NCBI RefSeq assembly: GCF_000012465.1
Contig: NC_007335.2
Span: forward strand, 30,001-62,000
Source: Prochlorococcus marinus str. NATL2A
Lineage (GTDB): Bacteria > Cyanobacteriota > Cyanobacteriia > PCC-6307 > Cyanobiaceae
Direction of reading: 5' to 3'
Length of the DNA stretch: 32,000 nucleotides
The position numbers and the translations under genes were made by a program. The notes beneath the pieces were generated by a model. The model was not told the DNA's origin. It made no database searches and was given only the letters and a program-made list of their open reading frames with translations. Below, one piece after another: positions 1,338 through 15,777 of this stretch. Positions within the stretch are counted from its first letter, which is position 1. Every line of letters starts with the position of its first letter.

Positions 1338-1748
1338 TTAAGCTGCTTGCCAATGATAATCGACATTGAATTTGGATTTTGATTTTTTAAAACTCTCAAT
1401 AGGTTTTGGCTGGGCCCATTTTAGAAGCCTTAGAGCCAAAAGTATGTCTCCTTCAGTCCATGCTTTTATTGCCATAGAGCGTCTTGGGTCGTAAAAACGT
1501 TGCTTTCTGTACCATTCAAAAGCATCATTATCTGTTTTGCTTCCATTACATGAGAGGCAGGCAGGCACACAATTTTCAGTGATGCTCAATCCACCTCTGC
1601 TTCTAGGTAAAACATGGTCAATAGATTCTGATGTTTTACCACAATAAATACAACTATTACCGGTAAATTCATGTAATGATTTTCTCCATCTTCGATTACG
1701 CAGCTTTGGACAGAGATCTTCTAAGAAAACCGCATCCCTATTGTGCAT
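1338..1748 (-). CDS. small HNH endonuclease
   Basis: CIYCG...DHVLPRSRGG...N...CLSCNGSK: Cys pairs plus the H-N-N/H pattern of an HNH zinc-finger nuclease. Confidence 0.8.
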   Translation of the reverse strand: MHNRDAVFLEDLCPKLRNRRWRKSLHEFTGNSCIYCGKTSESIDHVLPRSRGGLSITENCVPACLSCNGSKTDNDAFEWYRKQRFYDPRRSMAIKAWTEGDILLALRLLKWAQPKPIESFKKSKSKFNVDYHWQAA

Positions 1749-5195: not shown

Positions 5196-6782
5196 ATGGC
5201 TTCAATGATTTCAGCTGAAAAACGTAATCCAGCAATCGTAATTCTCGATTTTGGTTCTCAATATTCAGAATTAATTGCTCGAAGGATTAGAGAGACAGAG
5301 GTTTACTCATTAGTTATGAGTTACACAACATCTGCTGACCAATTACGTTCACTTAAGCCTAAGGGAATTATTTTAAGCGGAGGTCCTGGATCTGTTTATG
5401 AAGAAGGTGCTCCATATTGTGACCCAGAGATTTTTAATTTAGGAATTCCTGTTCTTGGTGTTTGTTATGGAATGCAATTAATGGTTCATGAGCTAGGAGG
5501 ATCTGTAAAACCTGCTGCTGGGAAAGCCGAATATGGAAAGGCTCCTTTAGAAGTTGATGATCCAACAGCGTTATTAACGAATGTTATTAGTGGTTCAACG
5601 ATGTGGATGAGTCATGGTGATTCAGTTCAGAAATTACCCAAAGGATTTGTCAGATTAGCTCATACTTCGAATACTTTAGAGGCTGCTATTGCTTTGCATG
5701 ATAAGAGCTTTTATGGAGTGCAATTTCATCCCGAAGTTGTTCATTCCACTCATGGAATGGTTGTAATAAGAAATTTTGTCTATGATATTTGCTCTTGTGA
5801 GCCGGATTGGACAACAAATTTATTTATAGATGAAGCTGTTTCTCAAGTACAACAACATGTAGGCGATAAAAAAGTTTTATTGGCTCTATCTGGTGGTGTT
5901 GATTCATCAACTCTTGCATTTTTGTTAAACAAAGCAATAGGACCTCAATTGACGTGCATGTTTATTGATCAAGGTTTTATGAGAAAAGGTGAGCCAGAAT
6001 TTTTAATGTCTTTTTTTGATGAAAAGTTCAAGATTAATGTTGAATACATCAATGCCAGAGAAAGATTTATTTCACAATTAAAAGGAGTAACTGATCCTGA
6101 GCAAAAGCGTAAAATTATAGGTAGAGAATTCATTCGGGTTTTTGAAGAAGAGAGTCTTCGATTAGGCCCTTTTGATTACTTGGCTCAAGGTACGCTTTAT
6201 CCAGATGTAATTGAAAGTTCTGGAACAAATATTGATCCAAAAACTGGCGAACGAATAGCGGTTAAAATTAAAAGTCATCATAATGTAGGAGGGTTGCCAA
6301 AAGATTTGCAATTTAAATTGGTAGAGCCTTTGAGACGTTTATTCAAAGATGAAGTCAGAAAAGTTGGTAAATCACTGGGATTGCCAGATGAGATTGTTCG
6401 AAGACATCCATTTCCAGGTCCAGGATTGGCTATAAGAATTTTAGGAGAGGTTACTCATGAGAAACTAAATTGTTTAAGAGACGCAGATTTAATTGTCAGA
6501 GAGGAAATTAATAATGCTGGCTTGTATAACAAAATTTGGCAGGCTTTCGCAGTTTTATTGCCTGTGTATTCAGTCGGAGTAATGGGAGATCAAAGAACTT
6601 ATGCTTGGCCAATTGTTGTTCGTTGTGTTTCTAGTGAGGATGGGATGACTGCTGATTGGTCGCGTTTGCCGTATGCAGTTTTAGAGAAAATTTCTAACCG
6701 GATAGTTAACGAAGTAGAGGGAGTCAATAGAGTTGTTTTAGATATAACAAGTAAACCCCCTGGAACTATTGAGTGGGAATAG
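5196..6782 (+). CDS. guaA: GMP synthase (glutamine-hydrolysing)
   Basis: GATase GVCYGMQ and HPEV motifs, ATP-PPase SGGVDSS loop, canonical C-terminus PPGTIEWE. Confidence 0.97.
6762..6782 (+). repeat. att core copy 1 (native 3' end of guaA, GGAACTATTGAGTGGGAATAG)
   Basis: Last 6 codons plus the stop of guaA. Repeated at 9220, 10186 (decayed) and 12032. Confidence 0.8.
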
Positions 6783-6803
6783 TTCAGGGTAGTAAAACGT
6801 AGT

Positions 6804-6826
6804 CCACCACTCAAAAAGGTGGTTTT
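6804..6826 (+). terminator. putative guaA terminator hairpin
   Basis: CCACC-actcaaaaa-GGTGG followed by TTTT. The stem is only 5 bp. Confidence 0.45.
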
Positions 6827-6842
6827 GTGTGGGTTTTGTTTG
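6821..6842 (+). repeat. tandem 11-mers GGTTTTGTGTG GGTTTTGTTTG, 38 nt after att copy 1
   Basis: Read directly; 9/11 identical. Followed by GTCACCTT GTCACCTT (6842-6857). Confidence 0.7.
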
Positions 6843-6861
6843 TCACCTTGTCACCTTCTCT
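6839..6861 (+). repeat. inverted repeat, left arm (TTTGTCACCTTGTCACCTTCTCT)
   Basis: Its reverse complement matches 9031-9053 at 22/23 positions. Confidence 0.8.
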
Positions 6862-6870
6862 GTAAAGACA

Positions 6871-6924
6871 TCGTAGATAGTTCATTTTCTCTACACCTGA
6901 ACCGTAGAGAACTTGTAGAGAAAA
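6871..6924. repeat. island palindrome cluster (TCGTAGA..TTCTCTAC-n9-GTAGAGAA-n3-GTAGAGAA)
   Basis: TTCTCTAC at 6887-6894 is the reverse complement of GTAGAGAA at 6904-6911. A second GTAGAGAA lies at 6915-6922. Confidence 0.7.
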
Positions 6925-7102
6925 CGTTGGAGAAAAAGTATTTATTTTGAAATAACTATTTTGCGAGATATGTTACTAAATTGACTACTTTTATAAGACG
7001 ACTTCTTACTCCTTTTTCAGGACTTCATCTTGTCCTCCTTTGAAATGTCAGGTTGATATAAAACAAAAGTTTATTTCTGCTCTATTCAACTATGACATAT
7101 TT

Positions 7103-7136
7103 ACGTAGAGAAATCGTAGAAAGGTATTGTTCTCTG
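7103..7136. repeat. island motif copy (ACGTAGAGAAATCGTAGAAAGG..TTCTCTG)
   Basis: The 16-mer GAGAAATCGTAGAAAG (7108-7123) is identical to 10349-10364. Confidence 0.7.
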
Positions 7137-7168
7137 AAAGATTAAATATTTTTATTCTGTGGAAATTG

Positions 7169-8911
7169 TCAATTCTCCGTTTTAGAAACCCAGAACTGAT
7201 ACATACTTAAGAAGGTCGTGGGATGTTTTTCTTCAAACTTTGCCCAGTTTTGTAAGTTTGTTTGCTTCCTATCTTCTGGGAAATAGTCTTCATATTTAGA
7301 TTTAATTGGTTTTGGAAGTAAGAATCCAAGAAAATTTAATTTATTTGATGTGAGAGTTTCTTGTAGTTGGTTAATGGTGAATCTATGTTCTTGCGTGTGA
7401 ACGCAAAGATCTCGGAATTCCGATAACGAATAGAAGTCAGAAATTGTTTTTAATGAGTTTAAATAGTTTAATTTACTCCCAATAACCTCTTGTCTAAAAT
7501 TACGAATATTTTCTTCGTTCGATTGAATTTTTTTATTGATAAAATAATTCCTTGCCTTAACAATATCTTTTCTTCCTAGTTCACTATATAAACCCAATTT
7601 AAGAAAACCATTATTTTTTAAAACCTTAAATAACATTCTCAAACCTTCTGAGGGATTATCCATATGGTGTAAAACTCCTGAACATAAAATAATATCAAAT
7701 TCTTCCTCTAGTAAATTAACTTTTAAGATATCCATTTGAATTAGTTCAACATTATTAATTCCAAGTTCATTCATCTTTCTTTTAGCATAAGAAATACTAG
7801 ATAAACTTATATCAATAGCAGTTATTTTAGAATTCTCATACTTCTGTGCTTCTAATATTTGCTTACCTGTTCCACATCCAGCAATCAGAACTTTTAATTG
7901 CCCATCTTGTAAAGTTTGATTTATATAATTAGGTTTGATGTCATTATTGATTTGACTGGTAAAAGATATTTTTAGACTTTTTGAATAATTTGCATATCTC
8001 CATCTAGGAAATGGATTTTCTTCATACTGAACTTTTACTTTTTGAGATATATTATCGTTTATAGTTCCTAACTTTTTGATATCATTAGATAATTCAATTT
8101 CTTGGATAGGTTCTTTTATTTGTAATTCTATCAGTTCTTTAAAACTTTTATTAGAAGAATTAATAAATTTTAAAGATGGAATCTGATCAAGAAGTTTATA
8201 TAGTGGAAAATAACAAGATAAAATCGAAATATTTATTTCACTTAATTGACCATCTCTACATCTTTCTATGATTGTATTAAGACACATATTTTCTTCTTCA
8301 GTAGATGAATAAACATAGTCGTTCAAGAAGCATTGCTCTCCTAATGCAGTAATGAATTGTAATTCTAAGTAATTAATAGTCTCTATATTACGAGAGATAT
8401 AATCGCACATATTTCTTCTTACTTTGGTTAGCAGTTTCTCCAGTTCAAGATTACAGAAGATTATCTTTTTAAATGCATTAATAATAACTTTATCATTGAG
8501 AAGTAATTTTATTTTTGAAAAATCTGAATCTAATTTTTGTAGAATACTGATTATTTCACCACTATATAAAAAATTAAATACATTTGCTAATTCTTTATGA
8601 GGCACATCATTTCTTTCTAGTAGAATATTTAATATATTTTTTAAGTTTGATTTGCTTAAATGAGATAGATCTGAATCTCTTAAAAGTCTTGTGATTAAGA
8701 TGTAATTCTTAGAATTTGTTGGATTGGTCTGAATTGCTTTTAAATAAGAATCAAATGCTTTATGAATTCTTTGCTCCTTAAAGGGTTTGGAAGCAGTATT
8801 TGTATTAATAGTGATATTTTCTTTGATTACTTCCAAAGTAAATGGAACTGGGAATGTAATGACTTCATAGACTTTCTTCTTTCTTTCTTCTTTTGGATTA
8901 GGTCTATCCAT
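7169..8911 (-). CDS. class I SAM-dependent methyltransferase with long helical N-terminal region (YEENPFPRW family)
   Basis: VLIAGCGTGKQ motif I, ..DIILCSGVLHH.. and YEENPFPRW. The first ~52 aa are homologous to the 10568-11776 product. Confidence 0.85.
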   Translation of the reverse strand: MDRPNPKEERKKKVYEVITFPVPFTLEVIKENITINTNTASKPFKEQRIHKAFDSYLKAIQTNPTNSKNYILITRLLRDSDLSHLSKSNLKNILNILLERNDVPHKELANVFNFLYSGEIISILQKLDSDFSKIKLLLNDKVIINAFKKIIFCNLELEKLLTKVRRNMCDYISRNIETINYLELQFITALGEQCFLNDYVYSSTEEENMCLNTIIERCRDGQLSEINISILSCYFPLYKLLDQIPSLKFINSSNKSFKELIELQIKEPIQEIELSNDIKKLGTINDNISQKVKVQYEENPFPRWRYANYSKSLKISFTSQINNDIKPNYINQTLQDGQLKVLIAGCGTGKQILEAQKYENSKITAIDISLSSISYAKRKMNELGINNVELIQMDILKVNLLEEEFDIILCSGVLHHMDNPSEGLRMLFKVLKNNGFLKLGLYSELGRKDIVKARNYFINKKIQSNEENIRNFRQEVIGSKLNYLNSLKTISDFYSLSEFRDLCVHTQEHRFTINQLQETLTSNKLNFLGFLLPKPIKSKYEDYFPEDRKQTNLQNWAKFEEKHPTTFLSMYQFWVSKTEN

Positions 8912-9030
8912 CTTCTCTTGTTTTTGCTCTCTTTTAGTTCTTACAAGTTTACTATTAATTCTTTCTTAAACTAGTTACTACTTACAGAGCGAGAATAAAA
9001 AGTAGGTCTATATATTATTTTTGTACCTAA

Positions 9031-9053
9031 AGAGCAGGTGACAAGGTGACAAA
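9031..9053 (-). repeat. inverted repeat, right arm
   Basis: AGAGCAGGTGACAAGGTGACAAA; 22/23 match to the reverse complement of 6839-6861. Confidence 0.8.
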
Positions 9054-9072
9054 ATGTAAGGTGGTGACAAGA

Positions 9073-9104
9073 AATCGTAGAGAAATACTCTACTAATTCT
9101 CTAC
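9073..9104. repeat. island palindrome copy (AATCGTAGAGAA-n12-TTCTCTAC)
   Basis: Perfect 8-bp arms: GTAGAGAA at 9077-9084 and TTCTCTAC at 9097-9104. Confidence 0.75.
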
Positions 9105-9150
9105 ATTTTATCGTTCCACACCAAAAAAACTAAAAAGTAATGGCATTTTC

Positions 9151-9172
9151 ACTTCCACACCACTTCCACACC
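9151..9172 (+). repeat. perfect tandem 11-mers ACTTCCACACC x2, 47 nt before att copy 2
   Basis: Read directly. A third TTCCACACC lies at 9114-9122. The reverse complement contains GTGTGG, as do the 6821 repeats. Confidence 0.8.
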
Positions 9173-9219
9173 GTATAATAAGGGGTGAAATCCGAGTCCA
9201 CCACTCAATTTTTTCCACA

Positions 9220-9240
9220 GGTGCTATTGAGTGGGAATAA
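9220..9240 (+). repeat. att core copy 2 (GGTGCTATTGAGTGGGAATAA)
   Basis: 18/21 identical to the guaA end, same orientation. Preceded by CCACTCAAT (9201-9209), which is the reverse complement of its ATTGAGTGG. Confidence 0.8.
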
Positions 9241-9260
9241 ATAATATTTAATATCTAATA

Positions 9261-10111
9261 ATGTCATCATTAGAGTTACAATTAGGTAGAGAATATAAGA
9301 GAAGAGAATTACATAATTTTTCTAGTGGGCAAAGGTAAGGAGGAATTTCTACTCCTCAGAAATATCCTTATATTTTAATAATTACTTCTAAGCGTGGACA
9401 AGAGCATGGATATGTTGATCGTTGGGTAGAAAATAATAATTTTTTCCTATACACAGGTGAAGGGCAAAGAGGTGATATGGAGTTTAAAGGAGGCAATAAA
9501 GCAATCAAATATCATAGACAAAATGATAAAAAAATATTTTTATTTCAGGAAACGAAAAAACCTTTATTGCATTAAAAGCAGAACTTAATTTTATTGATTA
9601 TAAGTATATTCAAGCTCCTGATACGGAAGGGAAGAATAGAAGAGCAATTCAATTTAGACTTCAATCCGTAAACGCAGAACCAGAAAGGGAAGTGGAACCC
9701 ATTTCAATTACGAAACTACATCTGAAACCTGATAAAACTGAAAGACAAGGTTTAGTAATTAGTAGAGTAGGGCAAGGATATTACAGGCAAGAACTTATTA
9801 AAAAATTTAATGGTAGATGTGCTGTCACATCGATAGATAGAGAGCAGATTTTGATTGCAAGTCATATAGTTCCATGGCGACTATCAACTGATGAGGAAAG
9901 ATTAGATGTAGAGAATGGGATTTTACTCTCTCCTCTTTATGACGCACTTTTTGATAAGCATCTAATTAGTTTTAATGATGATGGCGAAATTTTAATTGCT
10001 AATAGCATTAAAGATGACAACTTAAAAACTAATATTCGTCCAAATGCGAAGATTATAGTTACTGAAGGAATGAAGAAATATCTGTATCGTCATCGACTTT
10101 TGTTGAGATAA
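9261..10111 (+). pseudogene. disrupted SRA/PUA-like + HNH nuclease (type IV restriction-like)
   Basis: The reading frame from ATG 9261 has an in-frame TAA at 9336-9338 (GQR*GGIS). A -1 frame change at the A6 run (9555-9560) joins it to the 9692-10111 ORF. C-terminus: GQGYYRQELIKKFNGRCAVT...ASHIVPW...NGILLSPLYDALFD (HNH_2-like). N-terminus: FFLYTGEGQRGDMEFKGGNKAI (SRA-like). Confidence 0.7.
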
Positions 10112-10116
10112 AAGAG

Positions 10117-10138
10117 GTTACACGTATGTTATACGTGA
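10117..10138 (+). repeat. tandem 11-mers GTTACACGTAT GTTATACGTGA, 47 nt before the decayed att copy
   Basis: 8/11 identical. Also forms the CACGTAT-gtt-ATACGTG palindrome just after the HNH stop codon. Confidence 0.6.
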
Positions 10139-10185
10139 GAAAACTTTCCTTGAGACACTAGTTCACTACTCGATTATTTTTTGCT

Positions 10186-10205
10186 GGATTATAGAGTGGA
10201 AGTAA
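10186..10205 (+). repeat. decayed att core copy (GGATTATAGAGTGGAAGTAA)
   Basis: About two-thirds identical to the guaA end with a 1-nt gap. The left context TTTTTTGCTGGA parallels TTGTTTTGCTAGGA at copy 12032. Confidence 0.5.
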
Positions 10206-10243
10206 TAGTAACGTCTACTTTCCAGTGATAATTTGATTTATAC

Positions 10244-10326
10244 GGTTTTACGTAGGTTTTACGTGAGAGGTATGATGAGGATATAACTAGGGTTTTGAAG
10301 TGTCAGTTTTACGTGGGTTTTACGTG
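10244..10326 (+). repeat. two pairs of tandem 11-mers GGTTTTACGT(A/G); the first pair lies 38 nt after the decayed att
   Basis: Pairs at 10244-10265 and 10305-10326, plus a related GGTTTTGAAG at 10291. Confidence 0.8.
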
Positions 10327-10350
10327 GAACACTTTTACAGTCTCCATGGA

Positions 10351-10380
10351 GAAATCGTAGAAAGTTGATTTTCTCTACAC
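10351..10380. repeat. island palindrome copy (GAAATCGTAGAAAG..TTCTCTACAC)
   Basis: Contains part of the 16-mer shared with 7108-7123. TTCTCTAC at 10371-10378. Confidence 0.7.
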
Positions 10381-10437
10381 TTATAGAAAATTAAAAGCAA
10401 GAATTTCTTTTTTTGATTTTTCTATAAACTCACAATC

Positions 10438-10560
10438 TTAAATGTTTTGCAAGTAGTGAGTTTGTATTTTAGAAACACTGAACTGATACATGCCTGCGAA
10501 GTTCGTGGGATGTTGTTCTTCAAACTTTGCTCAGTTTTGTATGTTGGTTTGTGTTTTACC
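10438..10560 (-). pseudogene. fossil 3' end of a paralogue of the 7169-8911 methyltransferase
   Basis: 10468-10557 is about 80% identical by eye to 7181-7270. It translates on the minus strand as ..TNIQN*AKFEEQHPTNFAGMYQFSVSK.. against ..TNLQNWAKFEEKHPTTFLSMYQFWVSK.. The Trp codon has become TGA (10531-10533). Confidence 0.65.
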
Positions 10561-10567
10561 TTTTTAG

Positions 10568-11776
10568 TTAAACTCCTATTAATTTCACAGCAACTTGCTT
10601 TTCAAAATAAGAAACTGCCAACACTTCATAAGTTAAATTATTTTTAGAGCAAAATTCATTGAGTGCTTTATATTCATCCTGTTCCCAATTTTCACTGATA
10701 ATAAACTCATCAAATATTAAAATTGTATCTTTATCTATTACAGGTTTTGAGCAATTCAAGGCACAGAGAGTAGAAGAATAAAGGTCAGCATCAAAATTGA
10801 TAATTGATGCCATAGGTCTAGGTTTGGAATAAAAAGTTGGAAGGGTATCTTCAAATTTACCTGCTATAAATTCTCCACCCTCAATATTAGGAATGATCCC
10901 TTCTGCTGAATATGTCCCTTGTGCCTCGTGATGCCAATCTTCTGGTAGCCCTTCAAAAGTATCAAACCCATAACCTTTTTTGAAAGTATTAATTAGATAT
11001 CTAAATGAAGCACCCCGCCAAACACCAAATTCATAGAAAGGTCTATCTTTTTTGCTTTTTTTGGTCATACTGTCAAATAATGCCCATCTATAAAAAAACA
11101 ATTCAGGTAACTTCGGCAAATTAGCAACCCATTTAATAGATCGGGTTATAGCATGATCTTTATGAGTGGATTTCGTGAGATTATCAAATAATGATTGGTC
11201 ACCTTGATGTAATTTGAGCGCACTTAGATGGAGTTGTGCTTCTACATGATTTTCATCTATTTTTAAGACTTGATTTACCCTTTCCTCTGCTTCCTTAATA
11301 GTATTCGCTAATCCATATAAATTCCAAGCAGCACCTGTAAGATTAGGTTTAATTTTAATTGCTTTTCGTTGACAAATTTCTGCTTCTTCTAATTTACCAA
11401 GATCATTCAATATGATTCCCAGATTGGAATGTGCTTCTGCGTAATTAGGTTGCATTTCAATTGCTTTGCGAGTAGAAATTTCTGCTTCTTTTAATTTACC
11501 AAGTTGCGCTAATATTACTCCATAATTAGAAAAAACTCTGTGATCATTAAATCCTTCATTTATTAACTGTTGATAATATTTTTTTGCTTCTGCAATCTTT
11601 CCTTGTTTATGTAACATTCTTGCCTTATGAAATTTTTTTTCTTTAGATGGTTTAGACGGAGTTTGAGTAGTAATAGTGATATTTTCTTGATTTTCTCCTA
11701 AAGCAAATGAAATTGGAAATGTCTTTACTTCATAGACTTTCTTTTTTTTTTCTCCTTCTTGACTAGAACCATCCAT
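10568..11776 (-). CDS. TPR-repeat protein fused to a TylF/macrocin-type O-methyltransferase domain
   Basis: Three TPR units (AEAKKYYQQLI.., AEAHSNLGIIL..). C-terminus: FYEFGVWRGASF, FDADLYSST and ILIFDEF, typical of the TylF family. Confidence 0.85.
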   Translation of the reverse strand: MDGSSQEGEKKKKVYEVKTFPISFALGENQENITITTQTPSKPSKEKKFHKARMLHKQGKIAEAKKYYQQLINEGFNDHRVFSNYGVILAQLGKLKEAEISTRKAIEMQPNYAEAHSNLGIILNDLGKLEEAEICQRKAIKIKPNLTGAAWNLYGLANTIKEAEERVNQVLKIDENHVEAQLHLSALKLHQGDQSLFDNLTKSTHKDHAITRSIKWVANLPKLPELFFYRWALFDSMTKKSKKDRPFYEFGVWRGASFRYLINTFKKGYGFDTFEGLPEDWHHEAQGTYSAEGIIPNIEGGEFIAGKFEDTLPTFYSKPRPMASIINFDADLYSSTLCALNCSKPVIDKDTILIFDEFIISENWEQDEYKALNEFCSKNNLTYEVLAVSYFEKQVAVKLIGV

Positions 11777-11896
11777 CTTCTCTTATCTTTCTCTCTTTTG
11801 GTTTTGCTGATCTTACTCCTAATCTCGTCCCTTTCTAATTCTTTCTAAAATCATTTATTACTTTTAGAGGAAGGTTAATAAATATTTTCAATGAAC

Positions 11897-11907
11897 TTTC
11901 TACGATT
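11897..11907 (-). repeat. island motif copy, inverted (AATCGTAGAAA on the minus strand)
   Basis: Read directly. Confidence 0.5.
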
Positions 11908-11963
11908 ATTCAGAAAATCAACTCATAGAATAGAACTAACTCTGTTTATCTCTGAACTTTTTC

Positions 11964-11985
11964 AGTTTGTCACGGGTTTGTCACG
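11964..11985 (+). repeat. tandem 11-mers AGTTTGTCACG GGTTTGTCACG, 46 nt before att copy 3
   Basis: 10/11 identical. Related to the GTTTGTCACC repeats at 6838-6857. Confidence 0.8.
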
Positions 11986-12031
11986 ATCCAATAATCCTTG
12001 AGAATCCAGTTATATTCTTATTTGTTTTGCT

Positions 12032-12052
12032 AGGAACTATTGAGTGGGAGTA
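12032..12052 (+). repeat. att core copy 3 (GGAACTATTGAGTGGGAGTAA)
   Basis: 19/21 identical to the guaA end, same orientation. Confidence 0.85.
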
Positions 12053-12113
12053 ACTAGAACCTCTACTTTTCAGTTTTATTCATGTTTATTCTTGTAATTC
12101 TGATTTTAACGAC

Positions 12114-12136
12114 GTCGTAGAAATCTTTCTCTAAAC
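12114..12136. repeat. island motif copy (GTCGTAGAAATCTTTCTCTAAAC)
   Basis: Degenerate version of the ATCGTAGA..TTCTCTAC unit, located after the last att copy. Confidence 0.5.
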
Positions 12137-12295
12137 TTATAAATTTAATTTCTGATTAATTTTCAAACTAGAAACTTACTTTCTGCTCTGACCATGCGCT
12201 CGATTATTGCTTGCTTGGTTGAACTTTGTATTCCAATCAAGAATTAATTATGGCGAGGCTTCGAAAAAGACGTGATCATTTAAATAAGAGATAGT

Positions 12296-13033
12296 TTGGA
12301 TCAAATGTCATTTGAAGTTACTTACAATGGCGACATTCAATACATTAAAGTTTTCTACTCAACTGAAAAAACGAGAGCTGGAAAATACTATGGCGAGTTT
12401 TATAAAAAAATGGATGCATTAGCGAGTGACTTAAAACGCCTTAAACAAGAACTTGATGAAGATTGTGAAAAGGCAGCCAAGATTGCTAAAGATGCTGCCA
12501 ACAAGGCACTTTCTGAAAGATTTGGCTCACTTCGCTACATTATTGATGAGCATCTATGGGATCAAGACATTGTTATCAGCAAGATTCTTGACGATAGAAA
12601 AGAAGAGATGTTGGCTTTAGCACAGAAGACTTTTAATAATGAAGTTCTTCTTGAAGAGGATGGTGCAGAGGAATACAAAATCCACTTGGATGAAGGGGGA
12701 ATTGAAGTTGATGGTAAAAGTGTTGAGACATCGATAATGGAGTTTTTTGATTCTGACGACTACCACGAATCGAATGAGGCAAAACTAGAAAAATTGGAAA
12801 AACTGGATTGGTTTATCATCTGGTCGAGAACCGAGGCGGGAGAGTTTAGGACAGAGGGTGGACAACATGAGGGAAATTATTCATCAAAGGAATTAAATAT
12901 GGAAGATTGTTTGCTTACCTACAGAGATTTACCCCTTGTTAATCCCTCTAATGGCACGGACATCTTCAGTAATGAACTTGAAATTCATTTTGTAGATGAA
13001 ACCAGGGCATCCCTTGAGATAAGTGAATCTTAA
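12296..13033 (+). CDS. hypothetical, strongly acidic protein (probable start ATG 12305)
   Basis: 245-aa ORF with many D/E residues and a predicted coiled-coil stretch (LKRLKQELDEDCEKAAKIAKDAANKAL). No domain recognised. Confidence 0.55.
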   Translation: MDQMSFEVTYNGDIQYIKVFYSTEKTRAGKYYGEFYKKMDALASDLKRLKQELDEDCEKAAKIAKDAANKALSERFGSLRYIIDEHLWDQDIVISKILDDRKEEMLALAQKTFNNEVLLEEDGAEEYKIHLDEGGIEVDGKSVETSIMEFFDSDDYHESNEAKLEKLEKLDWFIIWSRTEAGEFRTEGGQHEGNYSSKELNMEDCLLTYRDLPLVNPSNGTDIFSNELEIHFVDETRASLEISES

Positions 13034-13208
13034 GAAGTATTCTCATGAATTTGATTATCAACTAATTTCCAACTATTGCAATTCAGTTCTCTTTGAGTTC
13101 TGTAGCATTCACTAAATAGATTTGTCTTGTGTTTTTAATTTGGTTGGATTTCCTTAAATATTGCTATGGCAGATTTGCCTCAAAACACTTGGATAATTCA
13201 AAAGATCC

Positions 13209-13251
13209 AAAAAGCAACTTTGTACTACTAGTACTTATCAAGGTGCTTTTT
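13209..13251. terminator. possible bidirectional hairpin
   Basis: AAAAAGCA..CTT..GTACTAcTAGTAC..AAG..TGCTTTTT. AT-rich, imperfect. Confidence 0.3.
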
Positions 13252-13317
13252 GCTCATGAATGCTCGTGTGAGGCATTTTTTGTACAGAGGCACTATTTTT
13301 GCGTTTAGTGTCGTCAC

Positions 13318-14181
13318 TTGATCAGAGGAAAAATCAGTAAGATTTGCCTAACTTATATACATTCCTATTTAAGCTTGCGGGTGGCTATGAATGAATTACG
13401 TTTAAGAATCTATAAGCAGCTAAAAAATGACTCACCAGAAGGGAGAACTTCTGTATTCAATAAAATCTGTGGAGTTACTATTTTTATTTCGATTTTTTTC
13501 GCAGTTATGGTTACTGAAAACTCAATCGATTATCAATTTGGAGATCAAATAGATCTTTTAGATTGGATTATTGGTGGTTGGTTTTGCGTTGAATATCTGT
13601 GTCGTTTATGGGTCGCACCACTTGAAAAAAAATATGGACAAGGTTGGAAAGGCGTTTTTCGTTATGTAATCTCACCAATGTCAATTATTGATGTAATTGC
13701 AATCGTCCCTTCTTTTTTTGGTGTTCGTGCTGAATTAAAAATTCTCAGGATTATTCGCCTTTTAAGAATCTTGAAAATTGGAAGAAGTGAAAAATTTAAG
13801 CAAAGTATTTTTCACTTCAATTATGCACTTCGGTCAAAGAGTCAAGAACTACAAATTTCGACTTTTTATACAGTTTTACTTTTGTTGATTAGCAGTACTT
13901 TTATGTATCTTGCTGAATCGTCCATTCAACCAGGATTGTTAGGTTCAATTCCAAGATGTCTTTGGTGGTCGATTACAACTGTCAGTGCTGTTGGTTATGG
14001 AGATTCAATACCTGTCACAGCATTGGGAAAAATAATTGCATCGATTACTTCTCTTATGGGTATTGCTGCAATTGCAATACCTACTGGAATCCTTGCGTCT
14101 GGATTCAGCGAATCAATTGGTGCACAAGCTAAAAATCAAAATGTTTCGAATGGAATTCAGGGTCCTAGTAATACTGGTTAA
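13318..14181 (+). CDS. voltage-gated-type K+ channel (probable start ATG 13387)
   Basis: TTVSAVGYGD selectivity filter. S4-like LKILRIIRLLRILKIGR with R/K at every third position. Flanking hydrophobic helices. Confidence 0.85.
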   Translation: MIRGKISKICLTYIHSYLSLRVAMNELRLRIYKQLKNDSPEGRTSVFNKICGVTIFISIFFAVMVTENSIDYQFGDQIDLLDWIIGGWFCVEYLCRLWVAPLEKKYGQGWKGVFRYVISPMSIIDVIAIVPSFFGVRAELKILRIIRLLRILKIGRSEKFKQSIFHFNYALRSKSQELQISTFYTVLLLLISSTFMYLAESSIQPGLLGSIPRCLWWSITTVSAVGYGDSIPVTALGKIIASITSLMGIAAIAIPTGILASGFSESIGAQAKNQNVSNGIQGPSNTG

Positions 14182-14361
14182 AAATGATATTCAAATTAAA
14201 TAAAAGTATATTTTTCAGTCAATAAAGAAGAAATAGATCTCTTGGTTTCATTAAGTGCAACTGACGCAAATACAGAAAAGAAAGGGAGAGATCTCCATAA
14301 TTCTTGATCGCATGATTTACAGAGCCATTGGGCCGAATACTGGAAAAATTTAAGACATAAT

Positions 14362-14387
14362 AAAAGGGGCGAGACTTAGTTCACCCC
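14362..14387 (-). terminator. rho-independent terminator of the 14444-14680 gene
   Basis: Minus strand GGGGTGA-actaagtc-TCGCCCC followed by TTTTAT. The stem includes one G-U pair, so it is strand specific. Confidence 0.6.
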
Positions 14388-14443
14388 ATATTTGTTATCG
14401 AGTGATCATTTGAATAATCATTTACTATGTTGACTTATAACTA

Positions 14444-14680
14444 CTAACCACCATTGCAGAAGCGAACTGCATCTGATGAACTCTTGCCAGTAGCTTGAAT
14501 CTCCTCAACACATTCATTGAACACCTTTGATTCTTGTTTAAGTGAGCAAAAACTTAGAGCGATTGCAGTAAGAGCGAGAGCAGAAACTACACTAGAGCCT
14601 AGCTGAATAATGCCATAAGCAAACATAGCTTTGCCTTTTCTACTGCACTTTTTTTTGTCTGTTTTATTCTCTTCGGTCAT
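14444..14680 (-). CDS. small single-pass membrane protein, hypothetical
   Basis: 78-aa ORF with a basic N-terminus, one TM helix (FAYGIIQLGSSVVSALALTAIALSF) and its own terminator. Confidence 0.5.
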   Translation of the reverse strand: MTEENKTDKKKCSRKGKAMFAYGIIQLGSSVVSALALTAIALSFCSLKQESKVFNECVEEIQATGKSSSDAVRFCNGG

Positions 14681-14801
14681 TTGTAAATTAGTTAATTCCT
14701 TAAATTAATTGATTTGTTGGTGAATTTATTTCAATAATTGTCGTGAATACCGTTCTCATTACTTGTTTTGGATTTTGCTTTTTCTAAATCAAAATAAGCA
14801 C

Positions 14802-14893
14802 AAAAAACCGCCCCATTCTGAACAAGACGGTTTTTTTAAGATCAGGCACAAGTGTTTCCTTGTTTCCACTGCGCAGGATCTCAACTCTTCACA
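14802..14893 (-). ncRNA. Yfr2-family-like sRNA
   Basis: The minus strand reads ..GCGCAGUGGAAACAAGGAAACACUUGUGC.. with GGAAACA twice in a hairpin loop. Terminator ACCGUCUUGUUCAGAAUGGGGCGGU + U6 needs G-U pairs, so it is minus-strand specific. TATAAC-like -10 just upstream. The 5' end is approximate. Confidence 0.55.
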
Positions 14894-14983
14894 GTTATAT
14901 ATTTACTAAGCTAATGAAAAACTCAAATATTAGAAGGCTGGTCTATCTTGTGGCACATGTCACAATTTGCAAAAGTAGTCATT

Positions 14984-15060
14984 AAAAAACACCCTGCTTA
15001 CAATAAGTCGGGTGCTTTATTTAACAGAACGATTGTGTGAGGAGTTGTCCTGTTAATTTC
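14984..15060 (-). ncRNA. yfr1: Yfr1 sRNA
   Basis: Exact ACUCCUCACAC on the minus strand (15035-15045). It is enclosed by the 7-bp inverted repeat UUAACAG/CUGUUAA and followed by CACCC..GGGUG + U6 (14984-15014). Intergenic location. The 5' end is approximate. Confidence 0.7.
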
Positions 15061-15151
15061 TTTCTACTCTAATGAGGACTTTTTGTCACTACTAAAAAAC
15101 AAAATGATTTAGATCATGAGATTTAATTGTTTTGTGACTTGCAAGATTAAT

Positions 15152-15469
15152 TTATTCTTCTGCGTTCTCAAACTGTTTTGCTAATCTAAAACCTTTTCTG
15201 AGAATTAAATAGATTCCATATAAACCAGCAATTAACGGAAGAACTATGAGAGGGTTTGGGCTATAACTAGAGTAATCTTTTACACCATCGACGTATTCGA
15301 TCCCTGAGCATTTCAAGTAAAGAAAACTTGTGAATACAATTCCCCAGCCAATAATTGAGAGAATCCCTCCTTTTTTGTCACCTTCATAAAATCTATCTAA
15401 ACCCCATCCCCAACCAATAGCAAGGATCACTCCTCTTGTGACAGCATTTTTCTCTTGCTTACGTAGCAT
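15152..15469 (-). CDS. TM2-domain membrane protein
   Basis: GWGLDRFYEGDKKGGILSIIGWGI matches the TM2 pattern. Two to three hydrophobic helices. Confidence 0.7.
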   Translation of the reverse strand: MLRKQEKNAVTRGVILAIGWGWGLDRFYEGDKKGGILSIIGWGIVFTSFLYLKCSGIEYVDGVKDYSSYSPNPLIVLPLIAGLYGIYLILRKGFRLAKQFENAEE

Positions 15470-15777
15470 TGTTTTTGTTTGAGTATGTTCGCAATGAACA
15501 TAACTGAATAATTGTTATTTTGCACAAACTGATTTAAGAAGATACTTGTTATTATAAGAATTTGGGTATCGTTTGCTAGAAAATTAGTTTGAAATTATGC
15601 GAATTAGAATCCCTGTCAAATAAAAAATAGAGAATTAGATTGGAAGTGATCAAAATAAATTCTATCTGTACCTTTTGAAGTTAGATCAATTTGAGGATTC
15701 CTAAGTTGAGCAATCTTGTTCGGGGGGGTGGTCTATTTCAAAAAAAAAAGATAACTTAGTTCAATGGCCTATTACTT

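What the first reader, a model, noticed from the sequence alone, without database searches (positions are those of the whole stretch)
7169..11880. Two cassette methyltransferases share swapped 5' and 3' modules around unrelated catalytic bodies
The products of 7169-8911 and 10568-11776 align only over their first ~52 aa: MD..(K)KKVYEV.TFP..F.L....ENITI.T.T.SKP.KE...HKA. The roughly 110 nt upstream of both starts are also homologous (CCATCTTCTCTT..CTCTCTTTT..CTTAC..TAATTCTTTCT.AAA). After that the proteins diverge completely, into a helical region + YEENPFPRW class I MTase versus TPR + TylF-like MTase. Directly downstream of the second gene lies a fossil of the first gene's last ~30 codons (10468-10557, about 80% identical to 7181-7270, Trp to TGA at 10531-10533). 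That fossil is followed by the same 16-mer motif. So a conserved promoter + leader module and a conserved tail + downstream motif frame an exchangeable middle. This implies the catalytic body was replaced by recombination between conserved flanks. The function of the shared N-terminal module (targeting or interaction tag?) is unknown.
Basis: partly seen in the sequence, partly recalled or inferred. Interest (0 to 1): 0.65.

Follow-up and report, generated by a model that had tools for sequence, protein, structure and literature searches.

The report
Swappable enzyme cassettes beside guaA
The two methyltransferase genes belong to a large Prochlorococcus family of single-gene cassettes, in which a fixed front end (promoter, short leader, TPR repeats) and a fixed back end frame many unrelated enzyme bodies, stacked in an array beside the guaA gene.

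Summary
The 5' homology is 184 nt (78% identical, E 2e-37). The 3' relic is 85 nt (87%, E 2e-25). The 16-mer is exact and occurs twice.

It is not a private swap between two genes. The same flanks frame 85 cassettes in 48 Prochlorococcus loci, with at least 14 body clusters. Named bodies include class I, TylF-like and PRMT-like methyltransferases, sulfotransferase, GT41 and 2OG oxygenases.

The shared front end is promoter, about 40 aa of predicted-disordered leader, and TPR repeats. Gene A is an ordinary family member that lost its TPR block by an in-frame deletion. That is why A and B align over only 52 aa.

The "fossil" is the last 82-140 nt of an A-type gene. It sits behind nearly every non-A body, and half the copies carry stops or frameshifts.

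Near-identical front and back modules occur on different bodies, so the middle is exchangeable. Each cassette is bounded by a copy of guaA's last 21-25 nt. Left and right arms assort independently at this core, which points to site-specific recombination, but no recombinase was found.

The protein function is inferred, not shown: TPR-targeted enzymes that modify proteins or glycans.

The parts
5196..6782 (+). guaA (GMP synthase). Its last 25 nt (6757-6781, core CTATTGAGTGGGA at 6766-6778) are the anchor sequence repeated between cassettes.
   Evidence: ORF. GATase/GMP_synt_C annotation on the same gene. Repeat family D7. guaA flanks such arrays in 5 other genomes.
6783..7107 (-). Leftover spacer between guaA and cassette A. 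It holds direct repeats (6822-6864), a degenerate second motif (6866-6879) and a terminator-like hairpin (6806-6823, + strand).
   Evidence: (D4, D5, D6, I2).
7108..7135 (-). Hairpin plus motif at the 3' end of cassette A. The exact 16-mer CTTTCTACGATTTCTC is at 7108-7123.
   Evidence: Conserved in 18 spacers. The hairpin is weak (-3.7 kcal/mol) with no covariation.
7169..8911 (-). Gene A, 580 aa. Leader (8756-8911) is fused directly to the helical region and class I methyltransferase. It is an A-type family member with the TPR block deleted. The last 82-140 nt (7169-7308) are the part that survives as a relic in other cassettes.
   Evidence: Pfam. Alignment to L032: aa 52-580 match aa 131-657 at 69% identity, and aa 7-70 match the leader. 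Best PDB sequence hits are protein lysine methyltransferases.
8912..9214 (-). Upstream arm of cassette A: purine-rich 5' UTR and promoter region homologous to B's (to about 9004), a motif-like copy (9070-9083), and direct repeats (9028-9053, 9150-9170).
   Evidence: Spacer alignment.
9215..9239 (+). Internal copy of the guaA 3' end, a cassette boundary. Core at 9224-9236 is exact.
   Evidence: D7, (Wm_22766).
9240..10207 (+). Non-family cassette. It holds a decayed HNH nuclease gene (9261-10111), broken by a stop and a frameshift; the intact HNH_2 ORF is 9692-10111. It ends at a degenerate core copy (10189-10201, 3 mismatches).
10244..10376 (-). Downstream arm of cassette B: two pairs of 11-nt-period direct repeats (10244-10263, 10306-10325), then hairpin plus motif (16-mer at 10349-10364).
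   Evidence: (D4, D10, D17).
10467..10562 (-). Untranslated relic of an A-type gene's last ~30 codons, with TGA for Trp at 10531-10533 and a 1-nt deletion.
   Evidence: D2, 33. The same relic lies behind TylF-type genes in L009, L012, L013 and L014. In L015 the TylF homology runs through the relic.
10568..11776 (-). Gene B, 402 aa: leader (11621-11776), TPR block (about 11336-11620), linker helices, then a TylF-like methyltransferase body.
   Evidence: Pfam. AlphaFold2 model: pLDDT 83.9, pTM 0.80, residues 1-40 at pLDDT about 30, first helix at residue 45. Body hits the sugar O-methyltransferases CalS11 and NovP.
11337..12052 (-). The full conserved 5' module of cassette B (core, arm, promoter, leader, TPRs). 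It is shared at 75-83% identity with cassettes carrying other bodies.
   Evidence: homology runs from position 10 to about 720-732, then stops for non-TylF bodies; 84-89% identity over about 277 nt upstream.
11965..11984 (+). Direct repeat pair GTTTGTCACGG x2 in the upstream arm of cassette B.
12028..12052 (+). Internal copy of the guaA 3' end, the distal boundary of cassette B. Core at 12037-12049 is exact.
   Evidence: D7, (Wm_19953).

Best explanation
Genes A and B are two members of a multi-copy Prochlorococcus family of single-gene cassettes, stacked head-to-tail next to guaA.

Each cassette has the same order of parts:
- a copy of guaA's last 21-25 nt;
- an arm with short 11-nt-period direct repeats;
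- a promoter and a purine-rich 5' UTR;
- a leader of about 40 aa, predicted disordered;
- a variable number of TPR repeats;
- a catalytic body;
- the last 82-140 nt of an A-type gene;
- a small hairpin with the TTCTACGATTTCT motif;
- a second repeat-bearing arm, then the next guaA-end copy.

The A-type gene (leader, TPR, helical region, class I methyltransferase) is the likely ancestral form. Other bodies were spliced in between the end of the TPR block and the last 30-47 codons. Each splice left the old codons behind as an untranslated relic.

Afterwards the conserved front (about 720 nt) and back modules acted as homology for further exchange. This is why near-identical front or back modules now sit on different bodies.

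Whole cassettes are probably added or rearranged by site-specific recombination at the guaA-end core, as in the guaA-associated islands of proteobacteria, using a recombinase encoded elsewhere.

Gene A is an A-type gene that lost all its TPRs by an in-frame deletion.

Shown: the anatomy, the family-wide distribution, the mosaicism, the decay of the relic, and the independent assortment of arms at the core.

Inferred: the polarity (A-type first), the recombinase, and the function. On function, leader plus TPR would be a common targeting module that brings different modifying enzymes to a shared protein or glycan substrate, probably at the cell surface.
For: Family and distribution
- The leader profile gives 400 hits, most of them N-terminal; about 25 of the 150 listed have the leader 14-77 residues in.
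- All 48 genome loci are Prochlorococcus, with several copies per genome.
- 37 of 38 full ORFs have TPRs after the leader. Gene A is the exception.
- There are at least 14 body clusters. Pfam names Sulfotransfer_3, 2OG-FeII_Oxy_5, GT41 and PrmA/PRMT5-like, besides the two window types.

The 3' module
- 45 copies were found. The offset between the upstream stop codon and the module is specific to body type: A-type +131, sulfotransferase +37, TylF +19 to +21.
- Only the last 82-140 nt of the A-type coding sequence survive.
- About half of the non-A copies have stops or frameshifts.
- Diversity of the non-A copies (0.28) matches the third-codon-position diversity of A-type copies (0.285).

Gene A
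- It matches the A-type genes at 66-70% identity apart from a clean deletion of the TPR block.

Mosaicism
- Upstream cluster U1 is joined to 4 body types.
- Homology between cassettes with different bodies ends at the TPR/body boundary.
- B's 3' module matches the one behind a sulfotransferase gene in L001 at 81.6% over 376 nt.

Array structure
- The order core, leader, tail, motif, core recurs regularly.
- guaA flanks arrays in 5 other genomes.
- At 61 unique junctions the arm types are independent. Mutual information is 0.54 bits against 0.60 +/- 0.10 in shuffles.
- Unrelated cargo genes carry the same boundaries.
- The core contains GAGTGGGA, the consensus in the direct repeats of guaA-associated islands (PMC7775301).

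Function hints
- The leader is predicted disordered. It stays an open frame in 65 of 65 copies.
- Gene A's methyltransferase domain resembles protein lysine methyltransferases. Gene B's body resembles sugar O-methyltransferases.
Against: - No recombinase gene lies in the window. A crude motif screen of 274 ORFs in the loci also found none.
- No circular or excised cassette was observed. All 23 contigs carrying the exact gene B either show the same arrangement or are too short to tell.
- The polarity rests on codon-position patterns and decay. No outgroup could be retrieved, because the protein search was saturated by close Prochlorococcus relatives.
- Some blocks of the relic stay nearly invariant even in frameshifted copies. 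A sequence-level function is therefore not excluded.
- Substrate and function are untested.
- The genome scan used only two peptide patterns, so the apparent restriction to Prochlorococcus is a lower-bound view.
Confidence: 0.75

Rival explanations
1. Literal local swap. In this genome, gene B arose when a copy of gene A had its body replaced, so the relic at 10467-10562 is a fossil of gene A itself.
For: The relic is 87% identical to gene A's tail, and the two cassettes lie 3.3 kb apart.
Against: - The same relic, at the same junction, follows TylF-type genes in other genomes (L009, L013, L014; L012 has it a few bases further 5').
- The relic is about as close to A-type tails elsewhere: L027 86.7%, L017 85.9%.
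- B's whole 3' module is closest to one behind a sulfotransferase gene in L001.
- B's 5' module clusters with cassettes of other genomes, not with A's.
Confidence: 0.04
2. The 3' module is a functional non-coding element (terminator, recombination site or RNA) rather than a decaying fossil. A-type ORFs merely read into it.
For: - Every non-A cassette keeps at least 82 nt of it, and the junctions fall within a 58-nt zone.
- The blocks AAACTGGGCAAAGTTTGAAG and ATCAGTTCTGGG are nearly invariant in all copies.
- One copy of the hairpin plus T-rich motif scores as terminator-like (9093-9077).
Against: - A-type copies show a coding pattern, with diversity 0.125/0.198/0.285 by codon position, and never lose the frame.
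- Non-A copies accumulate stops and indels, at a diversity equal to the synonymous level.
- Rfam gives no match.
- The hairpin is weak and shows no covariation.
Confidence: 0.25
3. Tandem duplication and homologous recombination only. The guaA-end copies are passengers of one ancient duplication, and no site-specific recombination is involved.
For: - No integrase lies in or next to the arrays.
- The long conserved modules are good substrates for unequal crossing-over.
- The number of TPRs varies.
Against: - Arm types with no mutual homology meet only at the 12-25-nt core, and they assort independently.
- The core is the best-conserved part of the spacer although it is non-coding there.
- Unrelated cargo genes have the same boundaries.
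- The same guaA 3' sequence is a proven attachment site elsewhere.
Confidence: 0.25
4. Chance or low-complexity similarity.
For: The genome is AT-rich (34% GC) and the leader is rich in Lys.
Against: E-values are 2e-37 and 2e-25. The leader family has 400 hits. No 16-mer match is expected by chance.
Confidence: 0.01

Closest known systems
guaA-associated genomic islands of proteobacteria (e.g. ICERspD18B; P4-type integrases; Song et al. 2012 as cited in PMC7775301)
   Same: Insertion at the 3' end of guaA. Direct repeats that copy the gene's end and contain GAGTGGGA. The core here is CTATTGAGTGGGA.
   Different: Those islands are single large elements that carry their own integrase and AlpA. 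Here there are arrays of 1-3 kb single-gene units with no integrase, in a cyanobacterium.
Integron gene cassette arrays
   Same: Arrays of single-gene units, all in one orientation for family members. Each ends in a conserved recombination-site module. Unrelated cargo shares the same boundaries. Neighbours assort freely.
   Different: No IntI gene or attI is adjacent. The cassettes carry their own promoter. The core derives from a housekeeping gene's end. An attC-like folded structure was not demonstrated.
Prochlorococcus genomic islands built by tycheposons (10.1101/2020.12.28.424599)
   Same: Island growth next to a conserved anchor gene, with partial copies of the anchor between successive insertions.
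   Different: Tycheposon islands sit at 7 tRNA/tmRNA genes, and the elements carry integrase and replication modules. guaA is not mentioned in that preprint. The units here are much smaller and lack hallmark genes.
TPR-catalytic fusions such as O-GlcNAc transferase and SPINDLY (GT41)
   Same: An N-terminal TPR superhelix precedes a catalytic domain. B's model matches the OGT/SPY TPRs best. Some family members carry a GT41 body.
   Different: Here one TPR front is combined with many unrelated catalytic folds, and it is preceded by a conserved disordered leader. Substrate binding by these TPRs is untested.
C-terminal displacement in Rhs/CDI polymorphic toxin loci (comparison from my own knowledge, not tested here)
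   Same: A conserved N-terminal part, exchangeable C-terminal parts, and remnants of displaced ends left downstream.
   Different: The exchanged parts here are enzymes, not toxin/immunity pairs. Only 82-140 nt of the old end remain.
Protein lysine methyltransferases (PDB 8hkr; PKMT1/2 in 5dnk, 5doo)
   Same: Gene A's methyltransferase domain and the region after it align to 8hkr. The full-length query gave aa 338-536 with E 2.4e-18; the C-terminal 243-aa query gave E 1e-18.
   Different: Identity is low. There is no evidence about the substrate. The leader and helical region are absent from those enzymes.

Membership tests
Class I SAM-dependent methyltransferase (gene A) | Rossmann-like SAM-binding domain recognised by Pfam methyltransferase models above their cut-offs | tested here: met
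   Methyltransf_31 at 70.8 bits (cut-off 27), plus Methyltransf_25, _11 and _12, over aa 337-443.
TylF-like O-methyltransferase (gene B) | Match to the TylF or Methyltransf_24 models above their cut-offs | tested here: met
   TylF 29.8 bits (cut-off 23), covering only profile positions 176-253 of 264. Methyltransf_24 26.9 bits (cut-off 26.3). PDB hits CalS11 and NovP at E 1.8e-5 to 4e-3.
Leader-TPR-enzyme cassette family (defined here) | N-terminal leader ..KTFPVPF..ENITI.T.TPSKPSKE.. at the start of the protein | tested here: met
   Both A and B carry it.
Leader-TPR-enzyme cassette family (defined here) | TPR block between the leader and the body | tested here: not met
   Met for B. Not met for A, which has no TPR hit. 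The cause is an in-frame deletion relative to 7 other A-type genes.
Leader-TPR-enzyme cassette family (defined here) | A-type tail or its relic, plus the TTCTACGATTTCT motif, downstream | tested here: met
   Both cassettes have them, as do 45 copies in the loci.
guaA-associated genomic island | Insertion at the guaA 3' end with direct repeats containing GAGTGGGA | tested here: met
   Repeats at 6757-6781, 9215-9239 and 12028-12052. Consensus taken from PMC7775301.
guaA-associated genomic island | Island-encoded P4-type integrase, often with AlpA | tested here: not met
   No integrase domain in the window's ORFs. A crude box-II motif screen of 274 ORFs in the loci gave no hit.
Integron | IntI integrase gene and attI next to the array | tested here: not met
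   The flanking genes are cbiD, guaA, an ion channel and PBP2.
Integron | attC site with a conserved folded, imperfectly palindromic structure at each cassette end | tested here: inconclusive
   Some arms hold an inverted copy of the core, and there is a weak hairpin at the motif. No covariation was found and no attC model was applied.
Tycheposon | Integration at one of 7 tRNA/tmRNA genes, with tyrosine recombinase and replication modules | tested here: not met
   The window has no tRNA gene and no integrase. Definition taken.

The most novel reading that the evidence does not exclude
The guaA island of this Prochlorococcus clade is an integron-like system without a resident integrase. Self-promoted single-gene cassettes are inserted, excised and reordered by a trans-acting recombinase at a 12-25-nt core copied from the guaA 3' end. 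The variable 11-nt-period repeats in the arms would serve as its accessory sites.

Within this system, the leader-TPR cassettes form a plug-in library. One targeting module presents interchangeable modifying enzymes (methyl, sulfo, glycosyl, hydroxyl) to surface proteins or glycans encoded in the same island. Cells could thereby re-decorate their surface under phage pressure.
Probability: 0.3. Interest if true: 0.8.

Novelty: new variant of a known kind. Interest (0 to 1): 0.62.

Why it matters
Prochlorococcus islands are where strains differ, and where phage-resistance changes are known to map. How genes get in and out of islands is understood only for the tRNA-anchored islands (tycheposons).

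This locus shows a second anchor, the guaA 3' end, already known as an attachment site in proteobacteria. It also shows a much finer unit of exchange: single genes with standard front and back ends.

The family is a natural example of domain plug-and-play. One promoter-leader-TPR module is combined with at least ten named or unnamed catalytic folds, and the recombination scars are still readable.

If the TPR module targets a common substrate, the family offers a direct route to finding what Prochlorococcus decorates on its surface. It also gives ready-made junction sequences for testing cassette mobility in culture.

Tried and rejected
- Rfam scan of 6700-15700 at E<=1. Nothing in the modules; the only hits were Cyano-1 and a weak Yfr10 elsewhere.
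- RNA consensus folding of the post-stop and motif region. Only a 7-bp hairpin at -3.7 kcal/mol, with no covariation.
- Promoter scan. The number of matches equals the shuffle expectation, so it is uninformative.
- Leader search in IMG/VR viral contigs. No hits.
- Looking for array variants around the exact gene B. All 23 contigs either show the same arrangement or are too short.
- Outgroup search to polarise the tail. The top 120 of more than 6000 hits are all close Prochlorococcus relatives, so no outgroup could be seen. PDB 8hkr aligns only up to residue 536, short of the tail.
- Foldseek of the gene B model. The matches are dominated by the TPR part (OGT/SPY, rmsd 12-14 A) and say nothing about the catalytic domain.
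- Regex screen for the tyrosine-recombinase box II motif. No hits, but the test is crude.
- Literature searches for a prior description of the cassette architecture or of a guaA island in Prochlorococcus. Only a general note that TPR domains are enriched in low-light strains (PMC11357015), and 'one large potential island' in NATL strains (PMC2151091). Searches found nothing specific. The library is incomplete, so prior description cannot be excluded.

Full report
**Setting**

The window has 34% GC. guaA lies at 5196-6782 on the + strand. The surrounding genes are core genes: cbiD, PBP2, flavodiiron proteins, alaS and speA. Gene B's exact protein sits on a contig of 1,842,899 bp. From memory, that is the genome size of Prochlorococcus marinus NATL2A, a member of the LLI clade. 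There is no tRNA gene in the window.

**Checking the observation**

- BLASTP aligns A and B only over aa 17-52 (58% identity, E 1e-8).
- The DNA homology covers 8939..8756 against 11803..11621 (184 nt, 77.7%, E 2e-37).
- It continues upstream to about -95 (A) and -110 (B) across a 16-nt indel.
- The relic at 10467-10551 is 87% identical to 7180-7264 (E 2e-25).
- TGA replaces Trp at 10531-10533, and there is also a 1-nt deletion.
- The 16-mer CTTTCTACGATTTCTC is exact at 7108-7123 and 10349-10364, with none expected by chance.
- Pfam confirms a class I methyltransferase without TPR for A, and TPR plus TylF/Methyltransf_24 for B.

**The leader marks a large family**

A 52-column profile of the leader finds 400 cluster representatives (140 at E<=1e-10) among 1.84 billion proteins. 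In most hits the leader lies at the N-terminus; in about 25 of the 150 listed it starts at residue 14-77.

A scan of one genome per species returned 48 loci. All are Prochlorococcus, and there are several per genome.

In 37 of 38 full-length ORFs the leader is followed by TPR repeats. Gene A is the only exception.

Behind the TPRs come at least 14 unrelated body clusters:
- class I methyltransferase (A-type);
- TylF-like methyltransferase (B-type);
- sulfotransferase;
- GT41 glycosyltransferase;
- 2OG-Fe(II) oxygenases;
- a PrmA/PRMT5-like methyltransferase;
- several bodies with no Pfam match.

**Gene A has lost its TPRs**

Gene A aligns to seven other A-type genes at 66-70% identity. Residues 1-52 match their leader, and residues 48/52-580 match their post-TPR part. 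So A is an A-type gene with a clean in-frame deletion of the TPR block. Family members with one TPR also exist. This is why A and B align over only 52 residues. Against cassettes that carry other bodies, B is homologous from the cassette boundary through promoter, leader and all TPRs. That is about 720 nt at 75-83% identity, and the homology stops at the TPR/body boundary.

**The 'fossil' is family-wide**

The segment corresponding to window 7300-7070 occurs 45 times in the loci and window. It lies directly behind almost every family gene, whatever the body.

The offset between the upstream stop codon and the module is specific to body type:
- A-type genes read through it (+131);
- sulfotransferase genes stop at +37;
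- TylF-type genes stop at +19 to +21;
- other types stop at +10 or -17.

Only the last 82-140 nt of the A-type coding sequence are ever retained.

In A-type copies the frame is always open. Diversity by codon position is 0.125/0.198/0.285. In non-A copies about half have stops or frameshifts, and the values are 0.253/0.294/0.356. Their mean of 0.28 equals the third-position value of the A-type copies.

The simplest reading is as follows. The tail is coding sequence in A-type genes. In the others it is a relic drifting at about the neutral rate. Each non-A body type arose once by a splice into an A-type gene. B's junction is shared with TylF cassettes in L009, L013 and L014, and L012's lies a few bases away. 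The event is therefore old and did not happen in this genome.

Two blocks of the relic stay nearly invariant even in broken copies. I cannot exclude a sequence-level function or gene conversion.

**The middle is exchangeable**

- One cluster of upstream modules (>=80% identity over >=200 of 280 nt) is attached to sulfotransferase, A-type, TylF-type and an unnamed body, twice each.
- B's upstream 277 nt are 84-89% identical to those of cassettes with other bodies.
- B's downstream module, including a ~40-nt insertion, is closest to the one behind a sulfotransferase gene in L001 (81.6% over 376 nt). It is less like those behind other TylF genes.

One qualification applies: the first capture of each new body needed a non-homologous join inside the old tail.

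**Cassettes and the guaA end**

The last 25 nt of guaA recur at 9215-9239 and 12028-12052, with a degenerate copy near 10189-10201.

In the loci the order is regular: core, about 270 nt, leader and gene, tail, about 160 nt, motif, 100-160 nt, then the next core.

guaA itself flanks such arrays in five other genomes. The ion-channel gene, or the ORF at 12296, lies on the far side.

Among 61 unique junctions, the left arms fall into types L1-L5 and the right arms into types R1-R7. One right-arm type is guaA itself. The arms share nothing except the core (A/T)(C/T)T-CCCACTCAATAG plus a few semi-conserved bases. They combine independently: mutual information is 0.54 bits against 0.60 +/- 0.10 in shuffles.

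Unrelated cargo genes are bounded in the same way:
- an AT3+SGNH acyltransferase;
- DUF4214/RTX/SBBP proteins;
- the decayed HNH nuclease in the window.

A core of this length is too short for ordinary homologous recombination between unrelated arms, so crossing-over at a specific site is the better explanation.

The same guaA 3' sequence, with consensus GAGTGGGA, is a proven attachment site for integrase-bearing islands in proteobacteria (PMC7775301).

Against this explanation, I found no recombinase in the window or the loci. I also found no circular form or array variant, and no copy on viral contigs. A model of tandem duplication plus homologous recombination therefore remains a live rival.

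**The motif**

The 16-mer is the 3' half of a small hairpin (GTAGAGA...TCTAC) followed by a T-rich stretch, often with the palindrome TCTCCATGGAGA. One copy scores as terminator-like. The fold is weak and shows no covariation. A weak terminator or a protein-binding site are both possible.

**The proteins**

The AlphaFold2 model of B has pLDDT 83.9 and pTM 0.80. Residues 1-40 are at pLDDT about 30, and the first helix starts at residue 45. The '52-aa module' is therefore about 40 residues of predicted-disordered leader plus the first helix of the TPR domain.

The leader is open in 65 of 65 ungapped copies. Its coding signature is modest, with diversity 0.269/0.198/0.302 by codon position. The conserved stretch is EVKTFPVPF.LGE.KENITI.T.TPSKPSKE.

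Foldseek matches are driven by the TPR part, with OGT and SPY on top. By sequence, A's methyltransferase domain is closest to protein lysine methyltransferases (8hkr at E 2.4e-18, PKMT1/2). B's body is closest to the sugar O-methyltransferases CalS11 and NovP.

Together with the GT41, PRMT-like, sulfotransferase and oxygenase bodies, this suggests a toolkit that decorates proteins or glycans, with the TPRs as a shared recognition module. That is inference only. The RTX/DUF4214 proteins in the same arrays are candidate substrates.

**Comparison with known systems**

The locus works like a guaA-associated island (same anchor and same repeat). It also works like an integron array (single-gene units with standard ends and free assortment). 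But it lacks the defining integrase of both. It resembles the tycheposon-built islands of Prochlorococcus in growing next to an anchor gene, but those sit at tRNA genes and carry hallmark genes.

I found no description of this architecture in the searchable literature. That library is incomplete.

**Verdict**

It is a new variant of known kinds, of moderate to high interest.

Noticed in passing
window 14834-14898 (-) and 14974-15054 (-): Cyano-1 RNA (RF01701) at 59.1 bits, above its gathering score of 41. Next to it is a weak Yfr10-like match at 34.9 bits, below the gathering score of 43.
   Followed up: no
window 9261-10111 (+): One gene broken by an in-frame TAA and by a frameshift in an A/T run. 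Only the C-terminal HNH_2 part (9692-10111) remains an intact ORF. It sits as its own cassette between guaA-end copies, in the opposite orientation to the family genes.
   Followed up: partly
window 9150-9170, 10244-10263, 10306-10325, 11965-11984, 6839-6864: Pairs of 9-11-nt direct repeats with an 11-nt period lie on both sides of every guaA-end core. Their position is the same in every cassette but their sequence differs (ACGTAAAAC, GTGACAAAC, ACACAAAAC and GTGTGAAAC types). They may be accessory recombinase sites. No protein partner is known.
   Followed up: partly
L016 3365-5341; L032 4290-6368; L004 9621-11468; L015 8599-9705: The arrays of other genomes hold non-family cassettes with the same boundaries: an AT3+SGNH acyltransferase, and DUF4214 proteins with RTX and SBBP repeats. 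All are cell-surface or secreted-type proteins, and so are possible substrates of the TPR enzymes.
   Followed up: partly
window 6783-7107: Between guaA and cassette A lies a spacer with a second, degenerate copy of the motif (6866-6879) and its own direct repeats. It looks like the remains of a lost cassette. The hairpin at 6806-6823 (+), made from an inverted partial copy of the core, is terminator-like for guaA.
   Followed up: no
window 11342-11429 and 11444-11531: A 102-nt-period direct repeat (76% identity) inside gene B, corresponding to adjacent TPR units. This kind of repeat could mediate the gain and loss of TPRs seen across the family (D3).
   Followed up: no
window 1338-1748 (-): A second small HNH endonuclease ORF (Pfam HNH and HNH_5) among core genes upstream of guaA.
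   Followed up: no
protein P0216 and relatives; P0330, P0362: Public names for family members are inconsistent. An A-type homologue in MIT 0801 is called 'Translation elongation factor P'. Several TylF-type members are called 'protein arginine N-methyltransferase'.
   Followed up: no
L054-L058: Short-read assemblies of cultures carrying gene B break into contigs of 1.5-1.7 kb that end just outside the gene. This is consistent with the repeated flanks defeating assembly, so this family is probably under-assembled in metagenomes.
   Followed up: no
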